Positions 7,893-24,820 of a stretch of 64,000 nucleotides of DNA are shown here, piece after piece. The first letter of the stretch is position 1. Each line of letters starts with the position of its first letter. A program made the translations under genes and the position numbers. Source of the stretch: a bacterium (lineage in GTDB: Bacteria; UBA8248); NCBI GenBank assembly GCA_965204535.1, contig CBDBEV010000001.1, forward strand, positions 1,088,001 through 1,152,000, in the 5' to 3' direction. The notes below the pieces were generated by a model. That model was given only the letters and a program-made list of their open reading frames with translations, was not told where the DNA came from and did no database searches.

Positions 7893-8333
7893 ATGAAAAT
7901 GTTCCCCATTCCCTGGGAGGCGCGCAGCGACGCGGGCGTTTTCCTGTTCAATCAGGGGGAATACTGGTGCGCGCATGAGGCGTGGGAGGGCATCTGGATG
8001 CACGCCGAGCCCGTGCCCAAGAAGTTCTACCAGGGGCTCATCCAGATCGCCGCGGGCTACGTGAAGCTCCAGCAGCGCCACCACAAGGGCGCGCTCGCGA
8101 ATCTCAAGAAGGGCCTCGAGCGCTTCCGCGAGGTGGATGAGGCCGTGGGCGACCTCGACGTGCCGATTCTCTACAAGAAACTCGTGAACCAATCGCGCGG
8201 GGTGCGCGTGAGCCTGCTCGATCAGGGTGAAGGGCGCGTGCTCGCCCGCGCGTGGGATTTATGGCCGAAGATTGAATACGCCGCCGACGCGAAGAAGAAA
8301 AAGGTTTCCCACTCGCCGCCGGCCAAAGGATGA
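7893..8333 (+). CDS. DUF309 domain protein
   Basis: LFNQGEYWCAHEAWEGIW..FYQGLIQIAAG signature; start at ATG 7893 after GGAG. Confidence 0.85.
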   Translation: MKMFPIPWEARSDAGVFLFNQGEYWCAHEAWEGIWMHAEPVPKKFYQGLIQIAAGYVKLQQRHHKGALANLKKGLERFREVDEAVGDLDVPILYKKLVNQSRGVRVSLLDQGEGRVLARAWDLWPKIEYAADAKKKKVSHSPPAKG

Positions 8334-8338
8334 GAGAG

Positions 8339-8890
8339 ATGAAACGTCTTGCCTTTTGCCTCACTATTCTGGTTTTTCTGAGCGGTTGCGGGGGTTTCGA
8401 GCTCACCGATTCTCCGTATCAGCGGATCACCCGCACCCAGCCGAAGGAGAGTTATCTCGTGGCCGTTCAGGCCAGGCTGGTTCCCACCGATTCGCACGTC
8501 GTCTCCCCCTCCACCCCCGAGGAGGCCGAAGTTCGAAGGGCCGCCTGCAAGGGGTTGTCGTTTACCCCCCGGTTCCGCTGCGCGCGGATGAGCGAGGCCG
8601 GGGAGCCTTTGGAGAATCCCGACTACGTCGTTCGGATAGAATACGACGTGATCGACGAGCGCTCTTTTCTGTCGCGCCGGTTCACCAGATTCGTGCTCGT
8701 GAGCGGCGGCGACAGGGAGCCGGACGAGGGAGACGACGTGGGCGATGCGGATCATCTCGTGCGCTGGGGCTTTCGGGTCATCAGGCCCGGAGAGGCGAAA
8801 CCCGTATTCCAGAGCATTTTCCGCGATGAGGGCGTCGATACCTGGAACTTCGACGTCGAACAGTGGATGGAGCGCTATTTTTCGGAGTGA
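8339..8890 (+). CDS. hypothetical lipoprotein
   Basis: MKRLAFCLTILVFLSG|C lipobox; directly follows the DUF309 gene. Confidence 0.7.
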   Translation: MKRLAFCLTILVFLSGCGGFELTDSPYQRITRTQPKESYLVAVQARLVPTDSHVVSPSTPEEAEVRRAACKGLSFTPRFRCARMSEAGEPLENPDYVVRIEYDVIDERSFLSRRFTRFVLVSGGDREPDEGDDVGDADHLVRWGFRVIRPGEAKPVFQSIFRDEGVDTWNFDVEQWMERYFSE

Positions 8891-9260
8891 ATTCGCGTCA
8901 ATCGGCACGCCGCATGATTAAATAAAAGAGTTCTCAATATGAAATGACCTATCGGTATCAACCGCGGCGTGGGTTATCGAATTCGGAAACCGTCTTGAGC
9001 CAATGAAGGCGTCTTTTCATAAATTTCTGAAAATTAAATTTCCTGGAAATGACGCCGCGGAATCCGGGCGCAGGGGAATTCTGCCACGAATCGCTGCACC
9101 TGCCATGACGGTATATGTGCGGACTTGTGGGCAACTGCGGAGGTGAAGGGCGGAAATTTCGTGAATCGGCGGTTTTATCGTAGAATCGTGGGCGGTTCGC
9201 GCGCTGCCGGGGGCTTCGAGAAAAACATCACAAGTCTTTTATTATCAGCAGGTTATAAAT

Positions 9261-10508
9261 TCACTCGATGACGACGTGCTCGCGGATGGGTTCGCCCAGG
9301 TGCGTCATGCCCGTCTCGGTGACGAGGACGGTATATTCCGCGTGCACGCCGCCCTCCCCGAATTTCCCCGAGGGCAATTCCACCGAGAGCACCGCGCCCG
9401 AAGGCAGGGAAATGTCTGAATTTTCAGGCAAAAACGGATCGTCGAGCTTCACGGGTTCGCTCAGCGTATAGGGCAGCTCGCGCGCCTCGATCCCTATCGT
9501 GTGCCCGCAGAAAGCGCCGTTATAGCGCGGCAGGCCCGATTTTTTCGCCGCCGCCACCGCCGCGCGAAAAATCTCGGAGGGCTTCACCCCCGCCCTGATC
9601 ACGCCGAAGGCGGCCTCTAATCCCGCCTGGATGGCGTTCCACTGCGCCTTGCGCTCCGCGCTCGGCTCGCCGAACGAACCGCAACAGCCCACGTCCGCGC
9701 AGTAATGGTTCAGCCGCATCCCGGCATCGAAGAAAAAGCCGTCCCCCGCCTCGAATTTTCTATCAGAGGGCGGAAAAATCGAGGCCGAACGCCTACCGCC
9801 GGCTAAATGGAACCAGCTCCATTTACCGCCTCCTGCGGCCACTGTACGGTAATAATGGCTTGCTACTTCGCGCTCGGTTCGTCCTGCGGCCATCTCCTTG
9901 TGGAAGGCGACGACGGCCTGTTCGTTCAAGACCGCTGCGGCGCGCATGCGCTCAATCTCTTCATCAGTCTTTTGGAGGCGAATCAAACGAAACAGGTTCG
10001 AGGCATCCAGGAAAGACATCTCCGGTAATGCCGCCTCGAGAGCGCCGCGCGTGCCTGGGCGGATTCCCTCGTTATCGAGGGCTACTTTTCCGCTCGATAA
10101 TCCCCGCTCCCGCAAAAGCCTGAGCAGGGCATTGGTAATATTCGCTTCGCGCGGAGCGTCTTCGGCGATGAGGGAAATATAATTCCTCTCCTCTTCGGTC
10201 GCTCCCGTCTCGCCGGGCGCCATATCGAGCGCCGAGCGGGGACCATAGCCCCTCACGTCTTTGATCCACGAACCCGTCGCCGCGTAGTACGTCTCATCCT
10301 GCCGGGAGAGTATTAACGCGGGCGGTGAGGCCTGATCCCGAAAAAACAGCGCGAAAGTTTCCGTCGTGGCATCGCCGTAGGTGTATTGCGCCCAGCCCTG
10401 AAAACCCGAGAGATACAAGACGTTATGCCGTGTCGTCGCTATCAGCGCGTCCAGATCGAACCTTTCCATGAACTCGAGCGCGTGTTCTTTATGAAAAAGC
10501 ATGAACAT
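9261..10508 (-). CDS. M24-family (Xaa-Pro peptidase/creatinase-like) hydrolase
   Basis: Creatinase_N-like N-terminus (NVLYLSGF), IRLQKTDEEIERMR, metal ligands FDAG..YCAD, GHTIG, VELP, HAEYT. Confidence 0.88.
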   Translation of the reverse strand: MFMLFHKEHALEFMERFDLDALIATTRHNVLYLSGFQGWAQYTYGDATTETFALFFRDQASPPALILSRQDETYYAATGSWIKDVRGYGPRSALDMAPGETGATEEERNYISLIAEDAPREANITNALLRLLRERGLSSGKVALDNEGIRPGTRGALEAALPEMSFLDASNLFRLIRLQKTDEEIERMRAAAVLNEQAVVAFHKEMAAGRTEREVASHYYRTVAAGGGKWSWFHLAGGRRSASIFPPSDRKFEAGDGFFFDAGMRLNHYCADVGCCGSFGEPSAERKAQWNAIQAGLEAAFGVIRAGVKPSEIFRAAVAAAKKSGLPRYNGAFCGHTIGIEARELPYTLSEPVKLDDPFLPENSDISLPSGAVLSVELPSGKFGEGGVHAEYTVLVTETGMTHLGEPIREHVVIE

Positions 10509-10528
10509 CCTCTAAAAGGAATACTGAA

Positions 10529-13500
10529 CTATGTTTGGGGAACAGGTTTCCTGTAATCCTTGATTTGCCGGACAAGCGGAATCCCGCCGCAAACCAGGCC
10601 CGCTACCAGCATGGTTATGCTGAAGAAAATGACGAACAAGATGAACGCGATGAAGCAGGCGAACAAGAGTATCCGCTCGTATTTGTACAGCCTGTCGAAG
10701 AGCCAGCCTTGCGTTCCCGCCGAGAAAGCGATGAATCCCAGGAGCGTAATGGATGCGGAAAGCGCGACGCGCAACGGACTCGCGAACGTAAGCAGCGCCG
10801 GGTCGAACATGAACAAAAACGGCACGATAAAGCCCACGATGGCGAAGCGAAGAGACATCATGGACGTCTTGAAATAGGGCGCTCCCGCCAGCTTGGCCCC
10901 AACGAGCGAGGCTATCGCCACGGGCGGCGTAATGGCGGAGAGAATCGCGAAATAGAAGATGAACATGTGGGCCGCGACCCGGTCTCCCTTGGCGGCCACG
11001 AACTCCTTGACCCATTCCGCTCCGTAAATATGCGTGAGTTCAGGACCCACGAGTTTTACCAGCACCGGTCCGCCCAGAATGGCGAGCAGAACATACGCCG
11101 CAGTCGTCGGCATGCCCATTCCCAATATGGCGCAGCAAACCGCTGTCAGCAGCAGCGCAACGAAGAAACCATCGAGGCCGATATAATACGCGCATCCCCC
11201 GCCGACAGCGGCGCCGAACACGCATATATCCTGGGCGAGGGCCTCGATCATGAAGGCGAACTTGTTCCCCACGCCCGTAATGGACAGAACCTGAACGACG
11301 ACCTCGATGGTAGCCAGCGTCACGGCGAATTCAGCCCCTTGCCTGCCGCCTACGCGCAGAGCGTTGCGAATGCTGAAAATCCAGTCGGAGGCGCTTTGCG
11401 CAGCCTGCGCGGCAGGGCCGGTCTCACCCGTCTGCTTCGCCCTGCGCAAATAGGTGAACGGATTGCAGGATACGGCCAACACCTGCTTCAGGTTAGGCGT
11501 CGGGGCTTCGGGGTCGGATTCTTGCGAGCCGAATGAAAAAATAACCCTCTGCACGATGACGGCCAACCCGAAAAAGATGAGACCGTCATATATGAACCCG
11601 AAAGGCACGAACCATTCGCCGAAATTCGCTATGGGGGGGACGAGCGCATAAATTCCTTTTTGCACATAATAGGCGCCCACCCAAATCATGACGAAAAACC
11701 AAGGTATGGTCGTGGTGGGTTGCGCTCCTTTGCCCCTGGAAACGGACCATACGCTCAGCAGGGCCAGCACGAGAGCGGCTCCCGCCACGCCGGAAGACCA
11801 GCCGAAGGCGACCCACAAACCCAACAACGTGAGCGGGAAGATGGCGAGCCAGTTGCTTTCTGTCTCGCGCCAGAATTCACCCACCCAGGAGAACATGCGA
11901 GCGAAAACGCTCGCCAGAACAAATCCGACGACACCCAGAGAAAGAGCAGCCTTTATCGCCCCGCCCCAAGTCGGTTTTCCGTATACCCCCAACGGTAATC
12001 CGAAACCCAACTCGAAAACCGTGAGCAACGCGTATAGGAAAAATGTGAAAACCCAAAACGTAACCGGCACGAAAACGAATACATCATCTGCGATCGTCTT
12101 GTCGCCTCTCCTCATAGTACCCAAAAATTCCGTCACGTTCCGGTAAAACCAGATGCCCACCATAATGAATACCGACATGACACCTGCAAACACAGGCGTT
12201 CTGCCCTGAAAGAGGAAATAGACCAAAAACGCCAGGGGCACGAGATAGAACCACCCGCTCCTGAGCTCCGCCTTCCAACTCGGAATTTCGTTAGCGGGCA
12301 ACGGCTGGATGTTCAGCGCGCCGGCTGCGAAGTGGATGTTGATTCCCACGATGGTGAAATACAAGATGGCCGGTATACTGGCGTATCCGATAATCTGGAA
12401 ATACGGCACCTCGATGAGTTCGCTCATGATGAAGGCGCCCGCCCCCATGACAGGCGGCATGATCTGTCCGCCGCTGCTGGCCGCCGCCTCCGCCGCTCCG
12501 GCGATGTGCGGGCTCAGACCGATACGCTTCATGAGCGGAATCGTGAACGTGCCGGTGGTTACGACGTTGCCGGATGCGCTGCCCGATACCGTACCCATGA
12601 GCGCGCTCGAACCCACGGCGGCGAGGCCGGCGCCCGCACGCAGCTTTCCAAACAGCCCCAAGGCGAAGTTCACGAAAAAACGGCCCGCGCCCGATTCATG
12701 CAGAAACGCCCCCAAGATCAAAAACATGATGATGAAGGTAGCCGATATGACGACCAAAAAGCCCAAAACGCCACCGATGAAATCGGTCGAGAGTTTCGCT
12801 TGGAGTTCTATCCATGTATGGCCGCCATGCCCGAAAGGAGGCGCAAACAAATTGCCCCATATACCATAAGCCAAAGCAATCATCGCCAAGGTCGGAAGCG
12901 GGGGGCCGAAGCAGCGCCTCGTCAATTCGAGAGCGACGACGATCATGACGAAGCCGACGCGCGCATCGCCGATTGTCGGCGCGCCAGGGCGATCGACCAT
13001 CTCTTCGTGGTAGTAGAACAGGTAAAGGCATGAGGTCGCCACGAAGAAAAGCATCCCTGCGTTCAAGCCAATTGTGAATCCAGCCGGAAAAGGATGCGCG
13101 GGGTATTCCTCAAATACTTCTTTGATGCGTCTTTTGGCCCAGAAAAGAGGAAAAGCAAGTACGACAACCGGCCAGAGGTAGAAGGCGCTCCTCACCTCAT
13201 CGCTTTGCCCGGCCCACAATCCTACCCGCCACCCAATCAGAATGAGCGCTACGAAAAATACAACGAGAAAAACACCCGCTTTTTTCACTCCCTCGGCAGG
13301 TCTGAAGAAAACCGCAAACAAGGTCCACATGGTGGGAATGGCGGAGCATGCGATTATAAGCCACCAAAAGTTGGGCTCATGCGTGCTTTCGGGCAAATAA
13401 TCCCAATACCAGAACAGTATCGGGGCTGGTACAAAGCCCAAAAACCAGAGAAAAAGGGCGAGCCAGGATTTCTCGACGACCATCATCGCCATCCAGATGG

Positions 13501-13855
13501 CGAACGGTAGCGCATAAACCCACCAAACACTCCAGTCGGACCAGCCTTCTCCCATCTCGTAGACGAAATAATAGAAGATGACGGCGGGGATCAAAGACAA
13601 GAGATAGAATACGGGGAGGTATTTAAGCTTGCGTATTTTATCTCCGTAAATCTGTGGCATCGCCCCGGCGCCGCCGATCAGAAGAATGGTATAGGCCAAA
13701 AGCATGTGCATGTTGGGGTGCATCTCACCCGGCAAAGGCCGGAGATAGACAGCGGATATGTGGTACAATCCTGAGAGCACACACAACCAGGATGCGATGA
13801 AAACCAGAGCCCTTACGAGAGGAGCCGACTGGGTGGGGTCTGATTCTGTACTCAT
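10529..13855 (-). CDS. TRAP transporter fused permease (TAXI-type 4TM/12TM), enlarged to 1108 aa
   Basis: SGSASGNVVTTGTFTIPLMK, ASSGGQIMPPVMGAGAFIM, LGMGMPTTAAY, AHMFIFYFAILSAITPPVA. Confidence 0.92.
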   Translation of the reverse strand: MSTESDPTQSAPLVRALVFIASWLCVLSGLYHISAVYLRPLPGEMHPNMHMLLAYTILLIGGAGAMPQIYGDKIRKLKYLPVFYLLSLIPAVIFYYFVYEMGEGWSDWSVWWVYALPFAIWMAMMVVEKSWLALFLWFLGFVPAPILFWYWDYLPESTHEPNFWWLIIACSAIPTMWTLFAVFFRPAEGVKKAGVFLVVFFVALILIGWRVGLWAGQSDEVRSAFYLWPVVVLAFPLFWAKRRIKEVFEEYPAHPFPAGFTIGLNAGMLFFVATSCLYLFYYHEEMVDRPGAPTIGDARVGFVMIVVALELTRRCFGPPLPTLAMIALAYGIWGNLFAPPFGHGGHTWIELQAKLSTDFIGGVLGFLVVISATFIIMFLILGAFLHESGAGRFFVNFALGLFGKLRAGAGLAAVGSSALMGTVSGSASGNVVTTGTFTIPLMKRIGLSPHIAGAAEAAASSGGQIMPPVMGAGAFIMSELIEVPYFQIIGYASIPAILYFTIVGINIHFAAGALNIQPLPANEIPSWKAELRSGWFYLVPLAFLVYFLFQGRTPVFAGVMSVFIMVGIWFYRNVTEFLGTMRRGDKTIADDVFVFVPVTFWVFTFFLYALLTVFELGFGLPLGVYGKPTWGGAIKAALSLGVVGFVLASVFARMFSWVGEFWRETESNWLAIFPLTLLGLWVAFGWSSGVAGAALVLALLSVWSVSRGKGAQPTTTIPWFFVMIWVGAYYVQKGIYALVPPIANFGEWFVPFGFIYDGLIFFGLAVIVQRVIFSFGSQESDPEAPTPNLKQVLAVSCNPFTYLRRAKQTGETGPAAQAAQSASDWIFSIRNALRVGGRQGAEFAVTLATIEVVVQVLSITGVGNKFAFMIEALAQDICVFGAAVGGGCAYYIGLDGFFVALLLTAVCCAILGMGMPTTAAYVLLAILGGPVLVKLVGPELTHIYGAEWVKEFVAAKGDRVAAHMFIFYFAILSAITPPVAIASLVGAKLAGAPYFKTSMMSLRFAIVGFIVPFLFMFDPALLTFASPLRVALSASITLLGFIAFSAGTQGWLFDRLYKYERILLFACFIAFILFVIFFSITMLVAGLVCGGIPLVRQIKDYRKPVPQT

Positions 13856-15231: not shown

Positions 15232-15840
15232 ATGAGCACATCCGGTTTTGAAACCTTTCGTCTCGTAAAACCCGATGAAGCCGAAAGCGAGGTTTCACAG
15301 ATTTATGATGAGATATGCCGATTGAAAGACCCGCGCTGGCTGGGGCCTTTGTTCGGTTTTTTCGCTCATGTGCCGGGTCTCCTACGTGGATTCTGGGAGC
15401 TGCAAAAACGTCTCGAAGTGCTGGATGGTCACATTTCGCGAGAGCTGACCAATCGTATCGCAATGGTTTGCGCGGTCGCCTCGGATTGTCCCCGTTGCGT
15501 GAATTTCCACAAAACCGACCTCATTCACCGCATGGAACTCGATGAGTATGAAGTCGAAAAACTCCATGACTTTGAAAATGCAGATTTGCCCGAGTCGGAA
15601 AAAGCAATATTCCGCGTGGCCAGAAAACTTACGCTCAACGAACAACTAACTGACGAAGAGTTTCAAGCGTTGCGCGAGCACGGCTTTGACGAGCCGGCAA
15701 TCGTGGAGATCGTCTCGGTCGCTCTGCTGGAGGGTGGTTTCGCGCGTCACGCAAGCGTTTTGGCCCGTTTTGAAGATGGGATGGACTGGCCGGTGCAACA
15801 TACCCCATCCGCCGAATACCGAAGTGTCATCGACCGCTAA
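15232..15840 (+). CDS. carboxymuconolactone decarboxylase/AhpD-like peroxidase-related protein
   Basis: CxxCxxxH motif (DCPRCVNFH), GFDEPAIVEIV typical of CMD/AhpD proteins. Confidence 0.75.
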   Translation: MSTSGFETFRLVKPDEAESEVSQIYDEICRLKDPRWLGPLFGFFAHVPGLLRGFWELQKRLEVLDGHISRELTNRIAMVCAVASDCPRCVNFHKTDLIHRMELDEYEVEKLHDFENADLPESEKAIFRVARKLTLNEQLTDEEFQALREHGFDEPAIVEIVSVALLEGGFARHASVLARFEDGMDWPVQHTPSAEYRSVIDR

Positions 15841-15878: not shown

Positions 15879-16142
15879 TTATTTCTTGCTATGAACTTGT
15901 GTCAGAAGACTCTTGGGAGGTTGTGTATTTTTAGCCGCTTTGCTTGCGCGAAGATTCTTTGTCTGAGTCAAGGGGGATTGGGGCGGCGCTTTCTTCGTGA
16001 TGTCATACTTAGGTGATTCGGCGGGGTAGTTGTAAAGAGTAACCAGGCACGCATCGGTTTTGCCGTGTGTTTCTTCGGCAAACGCGCTGGACACGCCCAC
16101 AAGAAAGAAAACAACCAACCCCAGAATTTTCAGACAGCCCAC
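15879..16142 (-). CDS. small hypothetical secreted protein
   Basis: Signal-peptide-like N-terminus (KILGLVVFFLVGVSSAFA); no recognisable domain. Confidence 0.4.
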   Translation of the reverse strand: MGCLKILGLVVFFLVGVSSAFAEETHGKTDACLVTLYNYPAESPKYDITKKAPPQSPLTQTKNLRASKAAKNTQPPKSLLTQVHSKK

Positions 16143-16379: not shown

Positions 16380-18338
16380 GTGCCAGAATCCAAGAATTTG
16401 CTAAAAATGATGAAAATCGACAAGTCCTTTCCGGGCGTTCATGCGCTCAAAGAAGTCGATTTCGATCTCGCCGAAGGTGAAGTCCACATCCTTTTGGGTG
16501 AGAACGGGGCCGGAAAATCCACGCTCATCAAAATTCTGGCAGGCATGTATCACGCCGATTCGGGGCAAATCGAGATTAGCGAAACACCCACCATTATTCC
16601 CGACGCCAGAACCGGGCGCGATCTGGGAATCAGCGTCATCTATCAGGAACTGAACCTGGTGCCTGATCTGAGCGTGGCCAAAAACATCTTCCTGGGTCGT
16701 GAACCGGTCTTGCCCGGTGTCATGAAGCGTGTGGATTGGGCTAAAGTCGAGCAAGAATCCCGCGCAATCATGGAGCGCCTGGACGTGAAAATCGACGTCA
16801 ACGCGCCGGTCCGCTCTCTAAGCGTCGCGGATCAGCAAATGGTGGAGATCGCCCGGGCTCTTGCGTTCGACTGCAAAATATTGGTGATGGATGAACCCAC
16901 GTCTTCTTTGAGCGGCCACGAAATCGAGGAACTCTTCAAGGCGGTCAACCGGTTGCGAGAGCATGGCGTCGGCATCATTTACATCTCCCACCGCCTTGAA
17001 GAAGTCCACGAGATTGGAGACCGCGTCACTGTCCTGCGTGACGGGGAATATATGGGCACGTGGGAAGTCAAGGAGGTGGAACTCGATTTCCTGATCACGC
17101 AGATGGTGGGACGAACGCTCGATGAGAAATTCCCCTGGACGCCCCGTGAACATGGAGAAGTAGCTTTGCGGGTGCGTGGACTCACCCGAAACGGCGTATT
17201 CGAAGACATCAATTTTGACCTCCATTATGGCGAAATCGTCGGCCTCTCGGGTCTCGTAGGCGCGGGAAGAACCGAAGTGGCTCGGGCCGTGATGGGCGCG
17301 GACCCTGTTGATGGCGGCACCGTCGAGATGACCAACGCGACAAAAGAGAAAGAGGAGATACAAAAGCTCCCCCACTACCCGATATGGATGGCGCTCGTGG
17401 ATGTGGTTGTCTTCATGCTGGCTTTGCCTTTGTTCACCGTCATCTTCCAGGGGATTTACGATCCTTTCACGCTCAACATGAACTCACCACCACCACTTTT
17501 CAGTGGGAATTGGTTTTATGAATGGATTCTTGGCGGGCCGTTATACAACATACCGAACGGTCCCACTCCCTATCTCGTCGCCGGCGGATTGGCCGTCCTG
17601 AGGCAATTGGGACTTTGGTTCCTCGAACGTCAGTACCACTGGCGCACCTTGGTCATCGACTTCGCAAGCTGGTACGCCCTGGCGATATGCGCGATGGTCT
17701 TTACGAGTCTGTTCACCCAGAATTTCGTTCTCGAATGGGTCATGATCTGGGGCGGCGTCGCCATGATTGTGATTCGATTCCTGACAATCCTCACGCATGA
17801 GCGCAAGTGGACCCCAACGCTGGCCATACGACGCGGGCTGGGGCTGTTGCCCGAGGACAGGAAAACCCAAGGCCTCACCCAGGTTCTCTCGGTTGCTTAT
17901 AACACCACAAGTGCTAATCTCCGCCGCCTCATCAAGCGTTGGCTGCTCAACCTGAGCATGGAAAAAGATTTCGTCGATGAGCATATCGACCAGCTGAAAA
18001 TCATGACGCCGAACCAGGAGACGCAAATACGCTTTCTCTCGGGCGGCAATCAGCAAAAAGTCGTTCTCGCAAAATGGCTCTTCAGACGCGCCAACGTGCT
18101 CATATTCGATGAGCCGACTCGCGGGATAGACATAGGCGCTAAATTCGAAGTTCACTCGCAGATGCTGCAACTTGCCAAAGACGGCGCTGCGGTTATGATG
18201 ATTTCAAGCGAATTGCCCGAGATTCTCGGGATGAGCGACCGCATTCTGGTGATGCGTGAAGGACGGCTCACCGCAGATATCGACAGAAACGAAGCTACGC
18301 AAGAAGGAATTTTGCGCTACGCAATGACGGCGGATTGA
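16380..18338 (+). CDS. sugar ABC transporter ATP-binding protein with an internal membrane-domain insertion
   Basis: GENGAGKST, MDEPT, GLVGAGRTE, ~150-aa hydrophobic insert, then LPEDRK, LSGGNQQK, FDEPTRGIDIGAK; start uncertain (GTG 16380). Confidence 0.9.
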   Translation: MPESKNLLKMMKIDKSFPGVHALKEVDFDLAEGEVHILLGENGAGKSTLIKILAGMYHADSGQIEISETPTIIPDARTGRDLGISVIYQELNLVPDLSVAKNIFLGREPVLPGVMKRVDWAKVEQESRAIMERLDVKIDVNAPVRSLSVADQQMVEIARALAFDCKILVMDEPTSSLSGHEIEELFKAVNRLREHGVGIIYISHRLEEVHEIGDRVTVLRDGEYMGTWEVKEVELDFLITQMVGRTLDEKFPWTPREHGEVALRVRGLTRNGVFEDINFDLHYGEIVGLSGLVGAGRTEVARAVMGADPVDGGTVEMTNATKEKEEIQKLPHYPIWMALVDVVVFMLALPLFTVIFQGIYDPFTLNMNSPPPLFSGNWFYEWILGGPLYNIPNGPTPYLVAGGLAVLRQLGLWFLERQYHWRTLVIDFASWYALAICAMVFTSLFTQNFVLEWVMIWGGVAMIVIRFLTILTHERKWTPTLAIRRGLGLLPEDRKTQGLTQVLSVAYNTTSANLRRLIKRWLLNLSMEKDFVDEHIDQLKIMTPNQETQIRFLSGGNQQKVVLAKWLFRRANVLIFDEPTRGIDIGAKFEVHSQMLQLAKDGAAVMMISSELPEILGMSDRILVMREGRLTADIDRNEATQEGILRYAMTAD

Positions 18339-18360
18339 ACCGCGTTCGGAGGTAGATGGA

Positions 18361-19374
18361 ATGAGCGCTGCAGTCTCGGCGGAAAATGAAAAATTCATCT
18401 TGGGTTATCCGGTAAAGGATATTCCCTGGGAGCGGGTGCTCCTCATTTCCGCGTTCGTAGTCTTGATGATCTTCTACACTTTTGCGACCGAGAATTTCCT
18501 CACCCTCGAAAACTTCGTGAACGTCGTGCGCCGAGACGCATGGCTCTTCTTTTTGGCCTATGCCCAGACATTGGTCATCGTGTCGGCGGGATTCGACCTT
18601 TCGCAAGGCTCCATCATGAGCGTGGTGAGCGTGATGGCCTGGAGCGCGATGCTGCATTTCGGGTTTTTCATCGGCCTCATCGCCGGCCTCGGCATCGGTC
18701 TGCTTTGCGGCGTCATCAACGGGTTTTTCGTCGGCGTCGTCAGGGTGCAGCCATTCATCGCGACACTGGGAATGCTCTTCATCGGCAGCGGCACGGCCCA
18801 GCTTTGGACCGGCGGCCTTCAGATGGGAGGCGCACGCGAGGGCGCAACGCTGCCGAAGCACGTGGAAGAAGCATACGTCTTTCTGGCGAAAGGGAATCTT
18901 GGGCCCATTCCCTTTACATTCATCTGGATACTCATCGCGCTGGGCACCATGTGGTATCTGCTCAAATACACCCGCTTCGGCACTTACGTGTACGCCCTGG
19001 GCGGAAACGAGCAAACGGCGATTTCCGCCGGCATCAACTATCCGGGCATGAAGATCGCCATTTTCGGCATCGGCGGTCTTCTGTGCGGTTTCGCAGGGCT
19101 TCTTCTTTCGGCGAACGTAAGCGCTGCGGGCGAACCCAGGCTGGGCGGCGGCGATCAACTGCTCCAATCGATCGGAGCGACCATCATCGGCGGCACGCAT
19201 ATTTTTGGCGGGCGAGGCGGCGTGCTGGGTACGACGCTGGGTGTTTTCCTGATCATATTCCTGGTGAACGGGCTGAACATCATGGGAATCGACACCTACC
19301 GACAACAAATCATCGTCGGTTTGGTGATTCTCGCCTCCATCTGGGTCAGCACCCTGCGCGAGCAGAAAAACTAA
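18361..19374 (+). CDS. sugar ABC transporter permease
   Basis: AGFDLSQGS, YALGGNEQTA, IGATIIGGTHIFGGRG. Confidence 0.92.
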   Translation: MSAAVSAENEKFILGYPVKDIPWERVLLISAFVVLMIFYTFATENFLTLENFVNVVRRDAWLFFLAYAQTLVIVSAGFDLSQGSIMSVVSVMAWSAMLHFGFFIGLIAGLGIGLLCGVINGFFVGVVRVQPFIATLGMLFIGSGTAQLWTGGLQMGGAREGATLPKHVEEAYVFLAKGNLGPIPFTFIWILIALGTMWYLLKYTRFGTYVYALGGNEQTAISAGINYPGMKIAIFGIGGLLCGFAGLLLSANVSAAGEPRLGGGDQLLQSIGATIIGGTHIFGGRGGVLGTTLGVFLIIFLVNGLNIMGIDTYRQQIIVGLVILASIWVSTLREQKN

Positions 19375-19389
19375 GGGGGATTCAACATC

Positions 19390-20385
19390 ATGGCGAATGT
19401 AGCGGAGGCTCCGGTCAGACCATCGGCCTCCTTGTTGGCCAACTTCAATTACGAAAAATATGGTTTGCTCGTCGTGTTCATCCTGATGATGATCATATTT
19501 TACGTTCTCCAGTTGATGGGCTACGTGAACAACTTCATCGAAGCCCATAATTTGACCAACCAACTCAGAAACGCATCTCTCCTGTTCTTCATCGTCGCGG
19601 GCCAGAGCATGGTGCTCCTCGTTTCAGGCATCGATTTGAGTCAAGGTTCCCTGCTCAGCCTCTCGAGCGTCGTGATGGCGCAGGGCATACTGGACTTCGG
19701 CCTTGCCGTGGGCGTGTTGATGGGCATCGGAATGGCGACGATTTTCGGTTTCATCAACGGCTACCTCGTGGGCCGCGTGAAGATACAGCCTTTCATCGTC
19801 ACCCTGAGCATGCTCTTCATCTGCGCAGGCATCGCACTGGTATTCACGGGCGGTCGCACCATTCACCAGTTCACGGGCGAGCAAAAAGATATCCTGCAAG
19901 CCATCGGGCTCACGGATTTCTTCCACATCCCCGGCACGCTGTTCATCGCCATCTTCTTCTTCATCATTCTCTACCTGCTGACGAAACGAACGGTGCTCGG
20001 CCGGGCGATCTATCTAACCGGTGGGAACGAGGAGGCCGCGCGCCTCTCGGGCATCGATACCGGCAAGGTGAAACTCATTTGCTACTTGATCAGCGGCATC
20101 TGCGTGGGCATCACCTCGTTCCTTTACCTGGCAAGACTCCCGGCCACGAACGGCCTCGCGGGGTTTCAGCTTGAATTCCAGTCCCTGGCGGCCACCGTGG
20201 TGGGAGGCACGACGTTCCACGGCGGCGAGGGGGGCGTGACGCAAGCCGCGATCGGGACGCTGTTCCTGACATTTTTGCTCAATGGCCTCATTCTGCTGGG
20301 CGTAGGAACATTCGCCCGGGAGGTGGTGGTAGGCTTGTTGCTCATTGCGGCAGTGGTTTTGAGTTCCCGCAAGCGGCGGGAATAG
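19390..20385 (+). CDS. sugar ABC transporter permease
   Basis: SGIDLSQGS, GGNEEAARLSGI, AATVVGGTTFHGGEG. Confidence 0.92.
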   Translation: MANVAEAPVRPSASLLANFNYEKYGLLVVFILMMIIFYVLQLMGYVNNFIEAHNLTNQLRNASLLFFIVAGQSMVLLVSGIDLSQGSLLSLSSVVMAQGILDFGLAVGVLMGIGMATIFGFINGYLVGRVKIQPFIVTLSMLFICAGIALVFTGGRTIHQFTGEQKDILQAIGLTDFFHIPGTLFIAIFFFIILYLLTKRTVLGRAIYLTGGNEEAARLSGIDTGKVKLICYLISGICVGITSFLYLARLPATNGLAGFQLEFQSLAATVVGGTTFHGGEGGVTQAAIGTLFLTFLLNGLILLGVGTFAREVVVGLLLIAAVVLSSRKRRE

Positions 20386-20474
20386 GAAATATGTTTATAC
20401 TGTAGTCATTTTTCCCTTTCGCGGAGGAGAGAACATCCGTCCGTGAAACCCATTCTGCGACGAGGAGATACAAG

Positions 20475-21533
20475 ATGAGAAAACTGTTCCGCACTTTCAT
20501 GATTCTCGCTTCCGTCGTCACGTTTATGTTCGTGTCGATGGCGGCAACCCCGGACGCCGACGCCCGGGTGAAGGCGAAGAAGAAATACAAGATCGCCGTC
20601 GTCGTGCCGAACGGCGTCGACCCCTATTTCTTCTCGAAATGGTACGGCAGCGTCCAGGCGGCCAAAAAAGCCGGTGTGACCGTGACGATGTTCGATGCAG
20701 GCGGCTATGAGTTCCTGCCCAAGCAGGTGGCCCACGTGGAGGACATCATCGCGGCGAAGTACGACGGGATGATCATCTGCCCCATCAGCACCAAGGGGAT
20801 GGTGGACGCCGTACACAAGGCGATGGAAAAAGGCGTCAAGGTCGTCGTGGACAACATCGACCTCGACAGTGATCGCGTCAAGAACCGCGTCATGAAAAAC
20901 AGCTACGAACTGGGCGTTCTCATCGCCTCCACCCTGGCGCATGGCATCAATTACGAGGGCAAAGTCATGATGCTGCCCGGACCCAGCGGCATCGAGATGG
21001 TGACCTCCATGGCCAAGGGCTTCGAGGAGTACATGAGCCACTACCCGAAAATCAAGATTGTGGCCAAGGAATTCACCAAGTCCAACGTGCAGCATGCATA
21101 CCAGACGGCGGAAGACCTGCTCAAGAAACATCCCGACGTAAAAGGCATCTACCCTTGGGCGACGCTCATCGCTCGCGGCACGGTGGACGCCGTGAAAGCG
21201 GCCGGTTACAAGCCCGGCCAGATCAAGATCGTGACGCACAACCTCGTCGTCGGCATCGAAAAAGACATTCGCGACGGCTGGGTGCATGCGGCTGTCCTGG
21301 CCGAGCAGATCGCCATGGCGAGTGAGGCTGTTTATAACGTGATCGATCTGATAGAAGGACGCCTGCCTCCCGGCACACCCTACCGTGGCGGCACGCTCAG
21401 CTACATCCAGAACTACATGGCTTTCCAGCACAACCTCGACATTCTGGATCGAAGCGGCATCGAGGCGCCCAAGAACTGGATGATCAAGCGCCAGAAACGT
21501 GCGGCGAACATCGTGGGCGGAAAACGCCGTTAA
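20475..21533 (+). CDS. sugar ABC transporter periplasmic binding protein
   Basis: Signal peptide, IAVVVPNGVDPYF, LKKHPDVKGIY; RBS GAGGAG. Confidence 0.9.
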   Translation: MRKLFRTFMILASVVTFMFVSMAATPDADARVKAKKKYKIAVVVPNGVDPYFFSKWYGSVQAAKKAGVTVTMFDAGGYEFLPKQVAHVEDIIAAKYDGMIICPISTKGMVDAVHKAMEKGVKVVVDNIDLDSDRVKNRVMKNSYELGVLIASTLAHGINYEGKVMMLPGPSGIEMVTSMAKGFEEYMSHYPKIKIVAKEFTKSNVQHAYQTAEDLLKKHPDVKGIYPWATLIARGTVDAVKAAGYKPGQIKIVTHNLVVGIEKDIRDGWVHAAVLAEQIAMASEAVYNVIDLIEGRLPPGTPYRGGTLSYIQNYMAFQHNLDILDRSGIEAPKNWMIKRQKRAANIVGGKRR

Positions 21534-21610: not shown

Positions 21611-22693
21611 CTACAAGCCCTTCACGTATATGCTGAGCCCCATCCGCCCCGTCGACCCGCCGGGTTGCGGATCGGAAATCTCATCCGTCTGCACTTTTCC
21701 TGCGCCATCCAATGCCCGCACCGTCGCCGGATAGAAACCGTTTTCCTCAAAACGCATGGGAAACGCCCAGACGCTCCAGGCGAGAGGCCCGAGAGGCTTT
21801 TTGAGCAAGGCGGGCGCCCAGGGCCGCAAACGCTCACCCTGCCCATAGGTTACCTCCACCTTGCGGATTCCCCTGTCCCCCGCGAAAGCAGACCCCACGA
21901 GCCACACTTTGGATGTCCGCACCTCAACGCGTCTTCTGGGAGCTTCAAAACGACTGAGCGTCTCGACGATTGCCTCATCCGACCACCCCCGCCGTTGCCA
22001 ATAGCCGCCATGGCCCTTGGTCGCAACCTCAATGGATTCAATCCATTTTACGTTCTTGAGGCCGTAGGTCCCCGGCACGAGGAGCCTGAGCGGAGCGCCG
22101 TGATCTCTCGGCAAAGGTTCTCCGTTCATCCTGGTGCAGAGAAGCGTTCTCGAATCGAGTGCCTGCTCCAGGGATATGGAATCATGATACCCGTCCGCCG
22201 CGCGGAAAATCACCCGGGCGGATACAGAGCGGCGAACGCTTTCCGCGACGCCCGCCCGCTCGATGAGGGTTCTGAGCGGCACCCCTTCCCACAGGGCGTT
22301 CCCAATCTGACCGCCGCCCACGGGGTTCCCGATGCAGGTCATCGTCGCCCAGGTTCGCTCCTGCCTGAGCGCGCCCAACGCCGCATAAGTAGCGGAAAAA
22401 GGCTCCGTTACCTCACCCGTTATTTTCAGCCGCCATTTCTTGCGGGAGAGCCCGGGCGCCGAATGGCCGATGCTTTGCACGTAGAATTTATCGTTCGCGG
22501 TGACTTCGGGAACGACGCGCGCGGCGAAATCGAGAATCCCCTCCCCGGGTCCGGGCGTCTCGACGGGGCGGCTGTTCAGCCAATCGAACAGGCGGCCCAT
22601 CATCGAGGCCTGCGCCTCGCGCGGAACCCCGATGACGGCGAGGGGCGCGACTCGCCCCGCAACCCGCAATAGATGGCGTCTGGAAACCCTCAT
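21611..22693 (-). CDS. Tat-exported molybdopterin-dependent oxidoreductase (sulfite oxidase/MsrP family)
   Basis: SRRHLL Tat motif, TMTCIGN (Mo-ligating Cys), GNALWEGVPL, DHGAPLRLLVPGTYGLKNVKW; RBS GGAGGAG before ATG 22693. Confidence 0.88.
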   Translation of the reverse strand: MRVSRRHLLRVAGRVAPLAVIGVPREAQASMMGRLFDWLNSRPVETPGPGEGILDFAARVVPEVTANDKFYVQSIGHSAPGLSRKKWRLKITGEVTEPFSATYAALGALRQERTWATMTCIGNPVGGGQIGNALWEGVPLRTLIERAGVAESVRRSVSARVIFRAADGYHDSISLEQALDSRTLLCTRMNGEPLPRDHGAPLRLLVPGTYGLKNVKWIESIEVATKGHGGYWQRRGWSDEAIVETLSRFEAPRRRVEVRTSKVWLVGSAFAGDRGIRKVEVTYGQGERLRPWAPALLKKPLGPLAWSVWAFPMRFEENGFYPATVRALDGAGKVQTDEISDPQPGGSTGRMGLSIYVKGL

Positions 22694-23310
22694 GGTGCTC
22701 CTCCACCAGGAAAACCGCTCCCCGATTCTACGATAAAACCGCCGATTCATGAAATTTCCGCCCCTCACCCCCGCAAATGCGGGCAGTTGCGGGCAAATGC
22801 GCGGGAGGCGAAAAACTTTTTTTACCGCTATATCTGAGTGTGGGACGCTCAGATTCATATGATAACTCGTTTTATTACAATGTTTTATCTGGCCATCATT
22901 TTTCAGGAATTTATCGAAAAACCCCGTGAATTTATCGAATTTTACGGGAAATAGGATTATTTGCATTTTTATCGTCATTCCCGAGTCCATGAGCATGATT
23001 TCTCTCCTCAAAACGATTTCCGTCCCTTCCTGAAGACGGTGCGTGGGCGGCGATTACCGCTTTTCTTCGCCGCGCGCACGATAGCGGATTACGGGATTTC
23101 AGGGAGTACGGCAAATGCGGGGAAATGCGCGCGCGGGAGAACCGGGCGGGGAGGGCTGTTCAAAAAGTCCCTGAGAAGGTAATGGCACCCCCCTGAAAGG
23201 GAAACCCCATTAAGGCAACCCCCCCTACCCCCCCTTGTCAGGGGGGTATGAAAAGGCGATGCGCTCCCGCCGGGCTGAGGGGGTTTTGCTTCTTCTTACC
23301 CCCCTGACAA

Positions 23311-24820
23311 GGGCCTGTTGAAAAACCCCTGGTTTTGTGATCGTATGGAGTTATCCCCCCTCGCCCGAGATGGGAGATTCCCCGATGTTGGACCGCAAGA
23401 GGCGCGGGCAGATGGAATTGTTCGTGGCCGGTTCGCTGGAGCAGTTGATTCCCGAAGATTACATATTGTTCCGGGTGAACCGCGTACTGGATTTGAGCTG
23501 GCTTCGCGAGGAGGTGGCGGAGTGCTATTGCGCGGACAACGGTCGACCGGGGATCGACCCGGAAGTGGTGGTGCGGTTGATGCTGGCGGGCCTGCTGCTG
23601 GGCCACGTTCACGACCGGCATCTGCTTCGCGAGGCGCAGGTGAACCTGGCGATCCGGTGGTTCATCGGTTACGAGCTGCACGAGGAGTTGCCGGATCATT
23701 CGAGCCTGACGCGGATTCGCCAGCGGTGGGGGGAGGCGCGGTTCAAGGAGATATTGCGCCGCACGGTTCAGGCGTGCCTGGAGGCGCAGGTGGCGAAGGG
23801 GGAAGTGGTTCACATGGACGCGTCTTTGATACGTGCGGACGTGAGTTGGGAGAGTCTGGCGGCGCGCCACGCGGAGAAGGTGGTGCGGGAGAACGACTCG
23901 GCGGATGAGGCGGGGAAGAAGGGCGGGGGTTCGGGTCCGGTGAGCCGTACGGACCCCGACGCGCGCCTGGCGCGCAAGAGCGCTCGGGCGGGGTTCGAGC
24001 CGAGCTACAAGCACCACGCGGTGGTGGACGATGAGCGGGGCGTTGTCCTCGACGTAGAGGTGACGGCGGGGACGTTGAACGAGCGGGAGATGATGGAGCC
24101 GCAGTTGGATGCGGTTTGCGAGCTCACGGGTCGCGCGCCCGCGGTGGTGACGGCGGATAGTGGTTATGCGTACTCGAAGGTGTATGCGGGATTGGAGCGG
24201 CGGGGTGTTGATGCGCTGATACCGGCGAAGAAGGAGCCTTCCCAGAGCCGTGTTCCGCTGCAGTTGTTCCGCTACGACGAGCGGCACAAGGTGGTGAAGT
24301 GTCCGGGCGGCAAGACGCTGCGTCCCCGGAAGGAGACGGAGCGGGGGCGCTACTATGGTTCGAGGACGCGCGATTGCGCGGGCTGCGCGCTGAGGTCGGA
24401 TTGTCTGCCCAAGTCGCACACGAGCAGGACGGTGCTGATTCCGCATGAATATCCGGCGCTGTTGCGCGCGCGCCGGCGGCACGCGCGCCGGGGGGAGGAG
24501 GAGGGCCGGCTGTGGCGCCGCCACATGTCGCGTTCGGAGGGCTACCACGGCGAAGCGAAGAGTCGGCACGGACTGGGGCGGGCGGTGCGCCGGGGCCTTG
24601 CGAACATGAGGATCCAGGCCTACCTGACGGCGACTGCGGTGAACCTCAAGCGGCTGGCCGCCGCTTTTGCGGCGGATATATTCGCTCTGTGGAGGGCCTG
24701 GGCCGCCCGGAGACGCCGTCTGCGCGCATATCGCGGCCTCACGCGCCGATTGGGCTTCCTATCCCAAGCCGCGTGAGCCGCCATACCCCCTGCTTCAAAA
24801 CAGGGTTTTTCAACAGCCCC
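23311..24820 (+). mobile_element. IS1182-family insertion sequence, copy 1
   Basis: IRL GGGCCTGTTGAAAAACCC, IRR GGGTTTTTCAACAGCCCC, 5-bp target duplication GACAA (23306-23310 / 24821-24825). Confidence 0.92.
23385..24776 (+). CDS. IS1182-family transposase
   Basis: LIPEDYIL, GRPGIDPEV, LPDHSSLTRIRQR, MDAS, ADSGY, Cys cluster CAGCALRSDC, SEGYHGEAK, NLKRLA. Confidence 0.93.
   Translation: MLDRKRRGQMELFVAGSLEQLIPEDYILFRVNRVLDLSWLREEVAECYCADNGRPGIDPEVVVRLMLAGLLLGHVHDRHLLREAQVNLAIRWFIGYELHEELPDHSSLTRIRQRWGEARFKEILRRTVQACLEAQVAKGEVVHMDASLIRADVSWESLAARHAEKVVRENDSADEAGKKGGGSGPVSRTDPDARLARKSARAGFEPSYKHHAVVDDERGVVLDVEVTAGTLNEREMMEPQLDAVCELTGRAPAVVTADSGYAYSKVYAGLERRGVDALIPAKKEPSQSRVPLQLFRYDERHKVVKCPGGKTLRPRKETERGRYYGSRTRDCAGCALRSDCLPKSHTSRTVLIPHEYPALLRARRRHARRGEEEGRLWRRHMSRSEGYHGEAKSRHGLGRAVRRGLANMRIQAYLTATAVNLKRLAAAFAADIFALWRAWAARRRRLRAYRGLTRRLGFLSQAA

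What the first reader, a model, noticed from the sequence alone, without database searches (positions are those of the whole stretch)
17331..17813. Sugar ABC ATPase with a ~4-helix membrane domain inserted inside NBD2
Seen: compared with the ordinary paralog at 5011-6516, where about ten residues separate 'GGEARLM' from 'PQRIDAGLGMVPEDRK', this protein has ~160 in-frame residues between 'DPVDGGTVEM' and 'PTLAIRRGLGLLPEDRK'. They include about four hydrophobic segments (WMALVDVVVFMLALPLFTVIF; YLVAGGLAVLRQLGLWFL; FASWYALAICAMVFTSLF; WVMIWGGVAMIVIRFLTIL). The Walker A of NBD1, the LSGGNQQK signature and both Walker B motifs are intact, and two full permeases plus an SBP follow, so this does not look like decay or a permease fusion. 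Known: RbsA/MglA-type (CUT2) ATPases are soluble. Inference: a membrane-anchored importer ATPase with an extra periplasm-facing loop that could sense a signal or gate ATP hydrolysis, an ABC importer architecture I do not recognise.
Basis: partly seen in the sequence, partly recalled or inferred. Interest (0 to 1): 0.78.

Follow-up and report, generated by a model that had tools for sequence, protein, structure and literature searches.

The report
Membrane module inside transporter motor domain
In one family of uncultured marine and sponge bacteria, the normally soluble ATP-burning subunit of a nutrient importer carries a conserved 152-residue insertion predicted to form four membrane helices, which likely acts as an extra membrane arm that helps hold the transporter and its binding protein together; I found this layout in no paper or solved structure that I searched.

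Summary
Real and under selection. The CUT2 (RbsA-type) ATPase at 16380-18338 carries a net 152-aa insert at the tip of the beta-hairpin between Walker A and the Q-loop of NBD2. It is present in 27 of 51 genomes of the phylum, all in one family. The Walker A-to-Q-loop spacing is identical in 26 of 27 orthologues. dN/dS is 0.12, and contigs from other runs bridge both junctions. The nearest sister operon lacks it.

AlphaFold and charge bias predict four membrane helices with both ends cytoplasmic; helix 2 is only weakly hydrophobic. Conservation concentrates on the predicted periplasmic face (40-aa Pro/aromatic loop, dN/dS 0.07). No relative outside these ATPases was found in 1.84 billion cluster representatives, Pfam or PDB; a WcaJ-like origin was not supported.

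The binding protein is TorT-like, so 'sugar' is only a family label. Best guess: an accessory membrane arm whose outer cap docks the binding protein or permease loops (0.45); rivals are a plain anchor (0.22) and a sensor (0.2). The scan found what looks like this family before on other DNA, and similar inserts in archaeal importers. New variant of a known kind.

The parts
16380..18338 (+). CUT2-type tandem-NBD ABC ATPase, 652 aa, with nested hydrophobic insert
   Evidence: PF00005; AraG/RbsA/XylG models, below equivalog cut-offs
17331..17813 (+). insert region, aa 318-478 (net 152 aa) at the tip of the NBD2 beta-hairpin between Walker A2 and the Q-loop
17382..17450 (+). predicted membrane helix 1 (aa 335-357; invariant W336, D341, P350, F352, T353, F356, Q357)
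17451..17567 (+). Pro/aromatic-rich loop, aa 358-396, predicted periplasmic (GIYDP..LNM..PP..S..WFYEW..G.P..I...P); most conserved part of the insert
   Evidence: (dN/dS 0.067; mean K+R 0.5)
17565..17624 (+). predicted membrane helix 2 (aa 396-415; weakly hydrophobic, invariant R408, Q409, W413)
17640..17714 (+). predicted membrane helix 3 (aa 421-445; invariant D427, W431, M439, V440)
17730..17804 (+). predicted membrane helix 4 (aa 451-475; preceded by invariant TQNF, invariant E452, W453, R466), running back into the NBD hairpin
16497..16520 (+). Walker A of NBD1 (GENGAGKS); by family knowledge pairs with signature 2 to form the one catalytic site
   Evidence: PMC11466899 passages
17250..17273 (+). 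degenerate Walker A of NBD2 (GLVGAGRT, no Lys), 19 residues before the insert
18036..18050 (+). ABC signature of NBD2 (LSGGN)
18361..19374 (+). permease 1 (BPD_transp_2, 337 aa, full length; non-canonical EAA motif EQTAISAG)
19390..20385 (+). permease 2 (BPD_transp_2, 331 aa, full length; canonical EEAARLSG)
20475..21533 (+). periplasmic binding protein (Peripla_BP_4), TorT-like

Best explanation
This is an intact CUT2-type ABC importer whose ATPase carries a conserved insert predicted to form four membrane helices, which likely makes the motor an integral membrane protein and probably serves as an accessory arm of the transporter, its conserved outer cap likely docking the binding protein or the permeases' outer loops. 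Shown: the insert, its site, its fixed length, its selection, the intact catalytic motifs, the four-gene operon and the outside-heavy conservation. Predicted: four membrane spans with both ends in the cytoplasm. Inferred: the helices pack beside the permease that couples to NBD2. They would pin the non-hydrolysing half of the motor (degenerate Walker A2) to the membrane. The 40-residue cap would hold the TorT-like binding protein near the gate, as the MalF P2 loop holds MalE, improving capture of a dilute solute. ATP hydrolysis would still run at the single Walker A1/signature 2 site through the ordinary coupling helices. The solute is more likely an amine, N-oxide or amino-polyol than a plain monosaccharide (weak inference).
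For: Insert in 27 of 51 phylum genomes. The binding-protein orthologue (76% identity or more) is in those 27 plus G017, whose contig starts inside permease 2, so insert and operon travel together. Spacing is 193 aa in 26 of 27 orthologues. dN/dS: insert 0.12, loop 0.067, NBD parts 0.046-0.052. Mean K+R per segment is 3.6 / 0.5 / 1.95 / 0.1 / 4.5 for N-linker / loop 1 / loop 2 / loop 3 / C-end, as four spans with in-out-in-out-in topology would give. AlphaFold puts four helices at 335-357, 396-415, 421-445 and 451-475; the insert alone folds at pLDDT 75, pTM 0.68. Invariant columns: 39 of 84 in the predicted outer half against 19 of 77 in the inner half (Fisher p 0.005, sites not independent). 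Loop identity between genera is 0.81, like the permeases (0.81, 0.85), against 0.58 for the inner half. A lipid anchor would not need a conserved outer face. Precedent for a periplasmic loop holding the binding protein: MalF P2, Kd 7-22 uM (PMC6906923, passages).
Against: No contact with the permeases or the binding protein was tested. The conserved outer face may simply be the folding core of the small domain (Pro/Trp-rich cap over the helices). The insert-less sister operon of G043 has the same gene order and already shows a non-canonical EAA motif in the permease-1 orthologue, so this transporter type can exist without the arm and no compensating loss in the permeases was seen. Helix 2 is weakly hydrophobic (1.25), and only helix 4 showed a one-sided variability pattern (p 0.03; others 0.08-0.30). 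The full-length model is weak (pLDDT 61, pTM 0.47; residues 473-570 under 50). No CUT2 ATPase was found in the PDB at E 1e-25, so the hairpin's position against the membrane rests on recalled structures of other ABC ATPases.
Confidence: 0.45

Rival explanations
1. Plain anchor or assembly aid: the helices tether the ATPase to the membrane so that it finds and stays on its permeases; the outer loop is conserved only because it caps and stabilises the bundle.
For: The helices change faster than the NBD (dN/dS 0.14-0.18 against 0.05), as lipid-facing surfaces do. The loop is rich in Pro, Gly and aromatics, which could be purely structural. Earlier scan notes report membrane inserts in many unrelated importer ATPases (unchecked), which would fit a generic benefit.
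Against: A 40-residue loop with half of its columns invariant and no length change across three genera is more than an anchor needs; a two-helix hairpin would do.
Confidence: 0.22
2. Sensor or gate: the outer cap binds a ligand, ion or the loaded binding protein and signals through the helices to the NBD2 hairpin just upstream of the Q-loop, switching ATP hydrolysis on or off.
For: Conserved aromatic and acidic residues face outward (Y360, D361, W378, F379, Y380, E381, W382, E452, W453). Helix 4 runs straight into the strand before the Q-loop. TorT-type binding proteins are known to signal through membrane sensors (PMC8050422, passages).
Against: No match to any sensor family or fold. The insert sits on the half of NBD2 that lines the degenerate site. 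No regulator gene was recognised next to the operon.
Confidence: 0.2
3. Fewer than four spans: only two helices cross the membrane and the others lie on or dip into it, or the insert is a hydrophobic bundle packed on the cytoplasmic face.
For: Helix 2 averages only 1.25 on the Kyte-Doolittle scale and holds invariant Arg and Gln. No dedicated topology predictor was available.
Against: Charge bias alternates as for four spans; AlphaFold gives four helices of 20-25 residues. The invariant D341 could neutralise R408 inside the bundle (inference).
Confidence: 0.08
4. Tolerated passenger: a fragment of another membrane gene landed in a permissive hairpin and is kept only because deleting it cleanly is rare.
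For: The site is a surface hairpin tip that is 12 residues long in relatives.
Against: dN/dS 0.12 and 0.067 in the loop, no indels in 26 orthologues, GC3 equal to the rest of the gene (0.70 against 0.66-0.68).
Confidence: 0.04
5. Assembly artefact.
For: The genome is a metagenome assembly with 5.3% estimated contamination.
Against: Same insert at the same site in 27 genomes and 22 database proteins; contigs of other runs bridge both junctions.
Confidence: 0.01

Closest known systems
CUT2 importer ATPases RbsA, AraG, XylG, MglA (TC 3.A.1.2; TC number recalled)
   Same: Two NBDs in one chain, one catalytic and one degenerate site, operon with BPD_transp_2 permeases and a Peripla_BP_4 binding protein; 47% identity to the window's ordinary paralogue and 60% to the G043 sister outside the insert.
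   Different: 652 aa instead of about 500; a 152-aa hydrophobic module inside NBD2; predicted to be an integral membrane protein; below every equivalog cut-off (AraG 553 of 689 bits, RbsA 518 of 745).
MalF P2 loop of the maltose importer
   Same: A periplasmic element between membrane helices that holds the binding protein through the cycle (PMC6906923, passages); this is the role proposed here.
   Different: P2 is a roughly 185-residue Ig-like domain of the permease; here the element is a 40-residue loop carried by the ATPase. No homology is claimed, and the role is untested here.
TagH of Bacillus subtilis TagGH
   Same: An ABC ATPase fused to a membrane helix that leads to an extracellular part (PMC11466899, figure legend passage).
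   Different: An exporter; one helix leading out of the NBD, not four helices nested inside the NBD fold with the chain returning to finish it.
N-terminal four-helix membrane domain of WcaJ/WbaP/CapD (next to Pfam PF13727)
   Same: Four helices of similar spacing with Asp in helix 1, G-L-aromatic after helix 2 and Arg at the end of helix 4 (pattern noticed by eye); nearest named Atlas cluster at 0.80.
   Different: Profile comparisons not significant; second Atlas query blank. Common ancestry is not shown.
TorT, TMAO-binding periplasmic protein (for the binding protein)
   Same: Best NCBIfam match (102 bits, next 79); D-x-Y-[FW] and AGGY..L.KQ motifs shared with PDB 4YHS; two database hits are named TorT by JGI.
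   Different: Below the cut-off of 200; lies in a transporter operon, whereas TorT serves the sensor kinase TorS (PMC8050422, passages).

Membership tests
CUT2 importer ATPase (RbsA/AraG/XylG/MglA type) | two ABC domains fused in one chain | tested here: met
CUT2 importer ATPase (RbsA/AraG/XylG/MglA type) | catalytic site from Walker A1, Walker B1 Glu, His switch 1 and signature 2 | tested here: met
   GENGAGKS, ILVMDE, H204, LSGGN invariant in 20 of 20 aligned homologues
CUT2 importer ATPase (RbsA/AraG/XylG/MglA type) | degenerate second site (Walker A2 without Lys, deviant signature 1) | tested here: met
   GLVGAGRT and LSVAD; described for RbsA and NupO in PMC11466899
CUT2 importer ATPase (RbsA/AraG/XylG/MglA type) | encoded with BPD_transp_2 permeases and a class I binding protein | tested here: met
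   all four genes in order in 21 of 22 loci, the 22nd ends inside permease 2
CUT2 importer ATPase (RbsA/AraG/XylG/MglA type) | soluble, no membrane segments, about 500 aa | tested here: not met
   652 aa with four predicted helices; the other four tandem ATPases of this type in the genome have 0-1 hydrophobic windows. Prediction only; filed as a variant derived from the family, not a canonical member.
CUT2 importer ATPase (RbsA/AraG/XylG/MglA type) | ATP-driven uptake of a monosaccharide | not testable with these tools
   Binding protein has Met, Ala and Asn where 2IOY has Arg, Asn and Asp; that these bind sugar is recalled from RbsB.
TorT (NF008185) | score above the curated cut-off of 200 bits | tested here: not met
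   102.4 bits
TorT (NF008185) | works with sensor kinase TorS | not tested
   No kinase among the neighbours scanned; the genome was not searched for TorS.
WcaJ/WbaP/CapD N-terminal membrane domain | significant profile or fold match | tested here: inconclusive
   hhalign probability 0.1-0.7%, P 0.08 at best in the expected register; 30 of 60 within-segment shuffles reach the observed score.
Fused TMD-NBD ABC transporters (exporter type) | membrane domain lies outside the NBD fold and forms the pore | tested here: not met
   Insert is inside NBD2; two full-length permeases are present.

The most novel reading that the evidence does not exclude
The ATPase carries its own transmembrane signalling arm: the periplasmic cap grips the loaded TorT-like binding protein (or a second ligand) and pulls directly on the NBD2 hairpin next to the Q-loop. 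This would be an outside-in route to switch on ATP hydrolysis that bypasses the permease coupling helices, and the same solution would have arisen repeatedly in importer ATPases of bacteria and archaea.
Probability: 0.2. Interest if true: 0.85.

Novelty: new variant of a known kind. Interest (0 to 1): 0.64.

Why it matters
Importer ATPases are taught as soluble subunits that learn about substrate only through the permease coupling helices. A conserved membrane module threaded through the middle of an NBD shows that this fold tolerates an integral membrane domain, and it gives the motor a possible direct line to the periplasm. The natural pair (insert-bearing clade and the insert-less sister operon of G043, 60% identical outside the insert) makes a clean test of what a motor-borne membrane arm adds to coupling, assembly or binding-protein capture. 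The system is kept in nearly every genome of a genus found in sponge metagenomes, so its unknown, probably non-sugar, solute may matter in that symbiosis.

Tried and rejected

Origin from the WcaJ/WbaP/CapD membrane domain: raised from memory and by a sub-threshold Atlas lead (0.80, 131 of 256 features). hhalign against the genome's own WcaJ, a 21-row local profile and a 27-row broader profile gave probabilities 0.1, 0.1 and 0.7%. The WcaJ-domain HMM did not list the ATPase among 163 domain rows in the genome. My own profile alignment scored 27.3, equal to within-segment shuffles (mean 27.4; 30 of 60 at or above), though above 18 permease windows (16.5-24.6). A second Atlas query with a diverged homologue gave no usable named hit. 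WbaP structures exist but were not among the 50 rows. Left as unsupported, not excluded.

Fold searches with the insert model: Foldseek 0 matches at E 0.001. VIA-align best row 8b5l_t, Z 9.6, rmsd 3.3, 111 aligned, 8% identity, under the level of about 13 that the tool gives for helical bundles; second look best Z 7.5.

Family scans: Pfam and NCBIfam found nothing for the window's insert. Among 20 homologues, PDR_CDR matched 8 (best E 2e-4) and RseC_MucC 6 (best 0.026); I read these as hydrophobicity matches and did not follow them. PDB sequence search best was EmrE at E 0.75.

Stand-alone or donor copy: none in the genome (next best E 0.18, a membrane protein that I recall as Bax-inhibitor/YccA-like). 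Shorter proteins: 2 of 111 candidates, both bearing PF00005 on contigs of 1.2-1.5 kb. Proteins over 1,141 aa were not searched in that database, but the unfiltered HMM search found one cluster only.

Permease decay or compensation: both permeases are full length. Promoter and terminator scan: 3 promoter-like sites against 3.8 expected, uninformative. RNA depth was not used to rank genes, because contigs cannot show level.

Host as nitrite oxidiser: G000's best match to TIGR03479 is 138 bits in a 964-aa frame. Three genomes of the neighbouring phylum have 213-218-bit matches in frames of 1,158-1,175 aa that I take for NxrA (inference). In 41 sampled genomes of that phylum the NBD2 flank matched once, in a 506-aa frame.

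Full report
Observation. The window holds a four-gene operon on the + strand: ATPase 16380-18338, permeases 18361-19374 and 19390-20385, binding protein 20475-21533. The ATPase aligns to the ordinary paralogue at 5011-6516 in two blocks, with 168 query residues against 15 between them. Against insert-less relatives the extra sequence replaces the turn of a short beta-hairpin: 'GTVEMT[insert]HERKWTP' here, 'GNIVLRGERLRPRTP' in the G043 sister. The net insertion is 152 aa (193 against 41 residues from Walker A2 to PEDRK). The catalytic motifs are intact and the second site is degenerate, as described for RbsA and NupO (PMC11466899; I saw passages only).

It is not an artefact. A word-seeded search with the insert found 22 proteins among 604 candidates, 59-92% identical, all bearing PF00005. 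A profile found it in 27 of 51 genomes of the phylum: G000, 21 of 22 others of the genus, 4 of 5 in a second genus, 1 of 1 in a third, and none of the 9 genomes outside the family. The binding-protein orthologue is in the same 27 plus G017, whose contig begins inside permease 2. Every genome with an NBD2 flank of 82% identity or more has the insert next to it. The spacing is 193 aa in 26 of those 27; my motif pattern failed on the 27th (G056), and on one of three more distant loci (L157); the other two gave 41. One contig of run X8 spans 16408-21053, and contigs of X4, X19 and X20 bridge single junctions. Of 22 listed runs, 11 are labelled sponge metagenome, from 4 studies.

It is under selection. 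I used 22 of 23 genes (L041 dropped for an indel after the insert) and pairs with synonymous difference under 0.6 (166-196 of 231 pairs by region). dN/dS was 0.046-0.052 for the NBD parts, 0.12 for the insert, 0.067 for its long loop and 0.18 for helices 2-4; GC3 matched the rest of the gene. With the insert removed, 9 insert-bearing ATPases form one clade (100/99). The G043 protein is its sister with moderate support (91/91) among 16 rows. This fits a single insertion within the family, followed by retention.

Anatomy of the insert. Mean hydropathy peaks are 2.49, 1.25, 1.63 and 1.92 against 1.02 outside. Among 91 ABC-like frames of the genome it is the only one with several hydrophobic windows between NBD parts. 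AlphaFold gives four helices in the full protein (overall pLDDT 61, pTM 0.47, much of the second half of NBD2 poorly modelled) and in the insert alone (pLDDT 75, pTM 0.68, with a further short helix in the loop). Lys+Arg counts alternate 3.6, 0.5, 1.95, 0.1, 4.5, which fits in-out-in-out-in and leaves both NBD halves in the cytoplasm. An odd number of spans is excluded by logic, since it would split the NBD across the membrane. Splitting the insert at the helix midpoints, 39 of 84 outer columns and 19 of 77 inner columns are invariant, against 259 of 479 in the NBDs. The cytoplasmic loop has no invariant column. This topology is a prediction; no dedicated predictor was available.

Origin. No relative outside these ATPases was found: 1 hit among 1.84 billion cluster representatives, none in Pfam or NCBIfam for the window's insert, no clear fold match. 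A likeness to the WcaJ/WbaP membrane domain was tested five ways and not supported; the only hints were an Atlas lead at 0.80 and a P 0.08 local match in the expected register.

Partners. Both permeases are full length. Permease 1 has a non-canonical EAA motif, but so does its orthologue in the insert-less sister. The binding protein's best family is TorT, at half the cut-off. It shares D-x-Y-[FW] and AGGY motifs with 4YHS and has Met, Ala and Asn where 2IOY has Arg, Asn and Asp; the sugar-binding role of those three is recalled from RbsB, not shown by a call. Close relatives were few: 10 proteins at E 1e-40 among 3,158 candidates, all 79% identical or more. The solute is unknown, and 'sugar' is a family label.

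Mechanism. I commit to an accessory membrane arm (0.45). The helices would sit beside the permease that couples to NBD2 and pin the non-hydrolysing half of the motor. The conserved cap would contact the binding protein or permease loops, as MalF P2 does for MalE (PMC6906923, passages). A plain anchor (0.22) explains the faster-changing helices but not the long invariant loop. A sensor or gate (0.2) fits the outward aromatic and acidic residues and the link into the Q-loop strand, and TorT-type proteins do signal through membrane sensors (PMC8050422, passages), but nothing here shows regulation. No partner contact was tested.

Host. Several records are titled Nitrospinota by their depositors. 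PMC10839748 (passages) notes that such genomes are split over several GTDB phyla, UBA8248 among the neighbours; that this family is UBA8248 is my recall, not a result. G000 lacks the long molybdoenzyme match seen in the neighbouring phylum, and that phylum gave one insert-less-sized match in 41 sampled genomes. I therefore found no support for the insert in the main nitrite oxidisers.

Novelty. Six full-text searches listed no title or abstract start describing membrane helices nested inside an importer NBD; I saw listings only, the library lacks most subscription papers, and I read no supplements. The nearest described case I saw is TagH, an exporter ATPase with one helix leading to an outside domain. 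No CUT2 ATPase turned up in the PDB at E 1e-25. PMC9531527 was consulted in passages for the taxon name only. Earlier notes of this scan describe what appears to be the same family in other genomes, and membrane inserts in archaeal OppD/OppF, Asgard and clostridial nucleoside-type ATPases, one at a hairpin of the dead second domain. These are unchecked leads; my profile search found none of those inserts as relatives, so if real they would be separate origins.

Verdict. A real, conserved, lineage-restricted architecture that a transporter specialist would find surprising, with a natural insert-less control and an untested function. New variant of a known kind; interest 0.64.

Noticed in passing
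window 10529-13855 (-): The neighbouring fused TRAP permease is 1,108 aa, the longest of 12 DctM-like frames in the genome, with two extra hydrophobic blocks (about aa 41-175 and 580-820) missing from most of 7 aligned paralogues. The second block is in 38 of 51 phylum genomes, 36 of 41 in the family, so it is more widespread than the ATPase insert. Two adjacent, unrelated transporters carry added membrane blocks.
   Followed up: partly
window 21611-23011 (-): A molybdopterin oxidoreductase gene (PF00174, twin-arginine-like leader by eye) converges on the binding-protein gene in 21 of 22 loci and in L044, L048, L086, L087, L088 and L090, but not in L049. It may hint at an N- or S-oxide solute.
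   Followed up: partly
L084 (G043:C6), 8134-12934 (-): Insert-less sister operon with the same gene order; ATPase 60% and binding protein 38% identical; neighbours look like cobalamin-dependent methyltransferase genes by eye. A natural control.
   Followed up: partly
L090 4571-6536 (-), G056: The orthologous ATPase is split by a frame break near aa 533, after the insert; assembly error or decay not determined.
   Followed up: no
window 23337-24776 (+): Transposase-like gene between the oxidoreductase and the cobalamin-binding-domain gene; no match in the 22 loci, including L022 and L025 where the flanking genes lie closer, so likely a recent insertion.
   Followed up: partly
window 15879-16142 (-): 87-aa frame with a signal-peptide-like start, divergent from the ATPase, matched in 19 of 22 loci at 47-95% identity; no Pfam family.
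   Followed up: no
window 15232-15840 (+): AhpD/CMD-like gene between the TAXI binding protein and the ABC operon, full length in 18 of 22 loci and partial in one.
   Followed up: no
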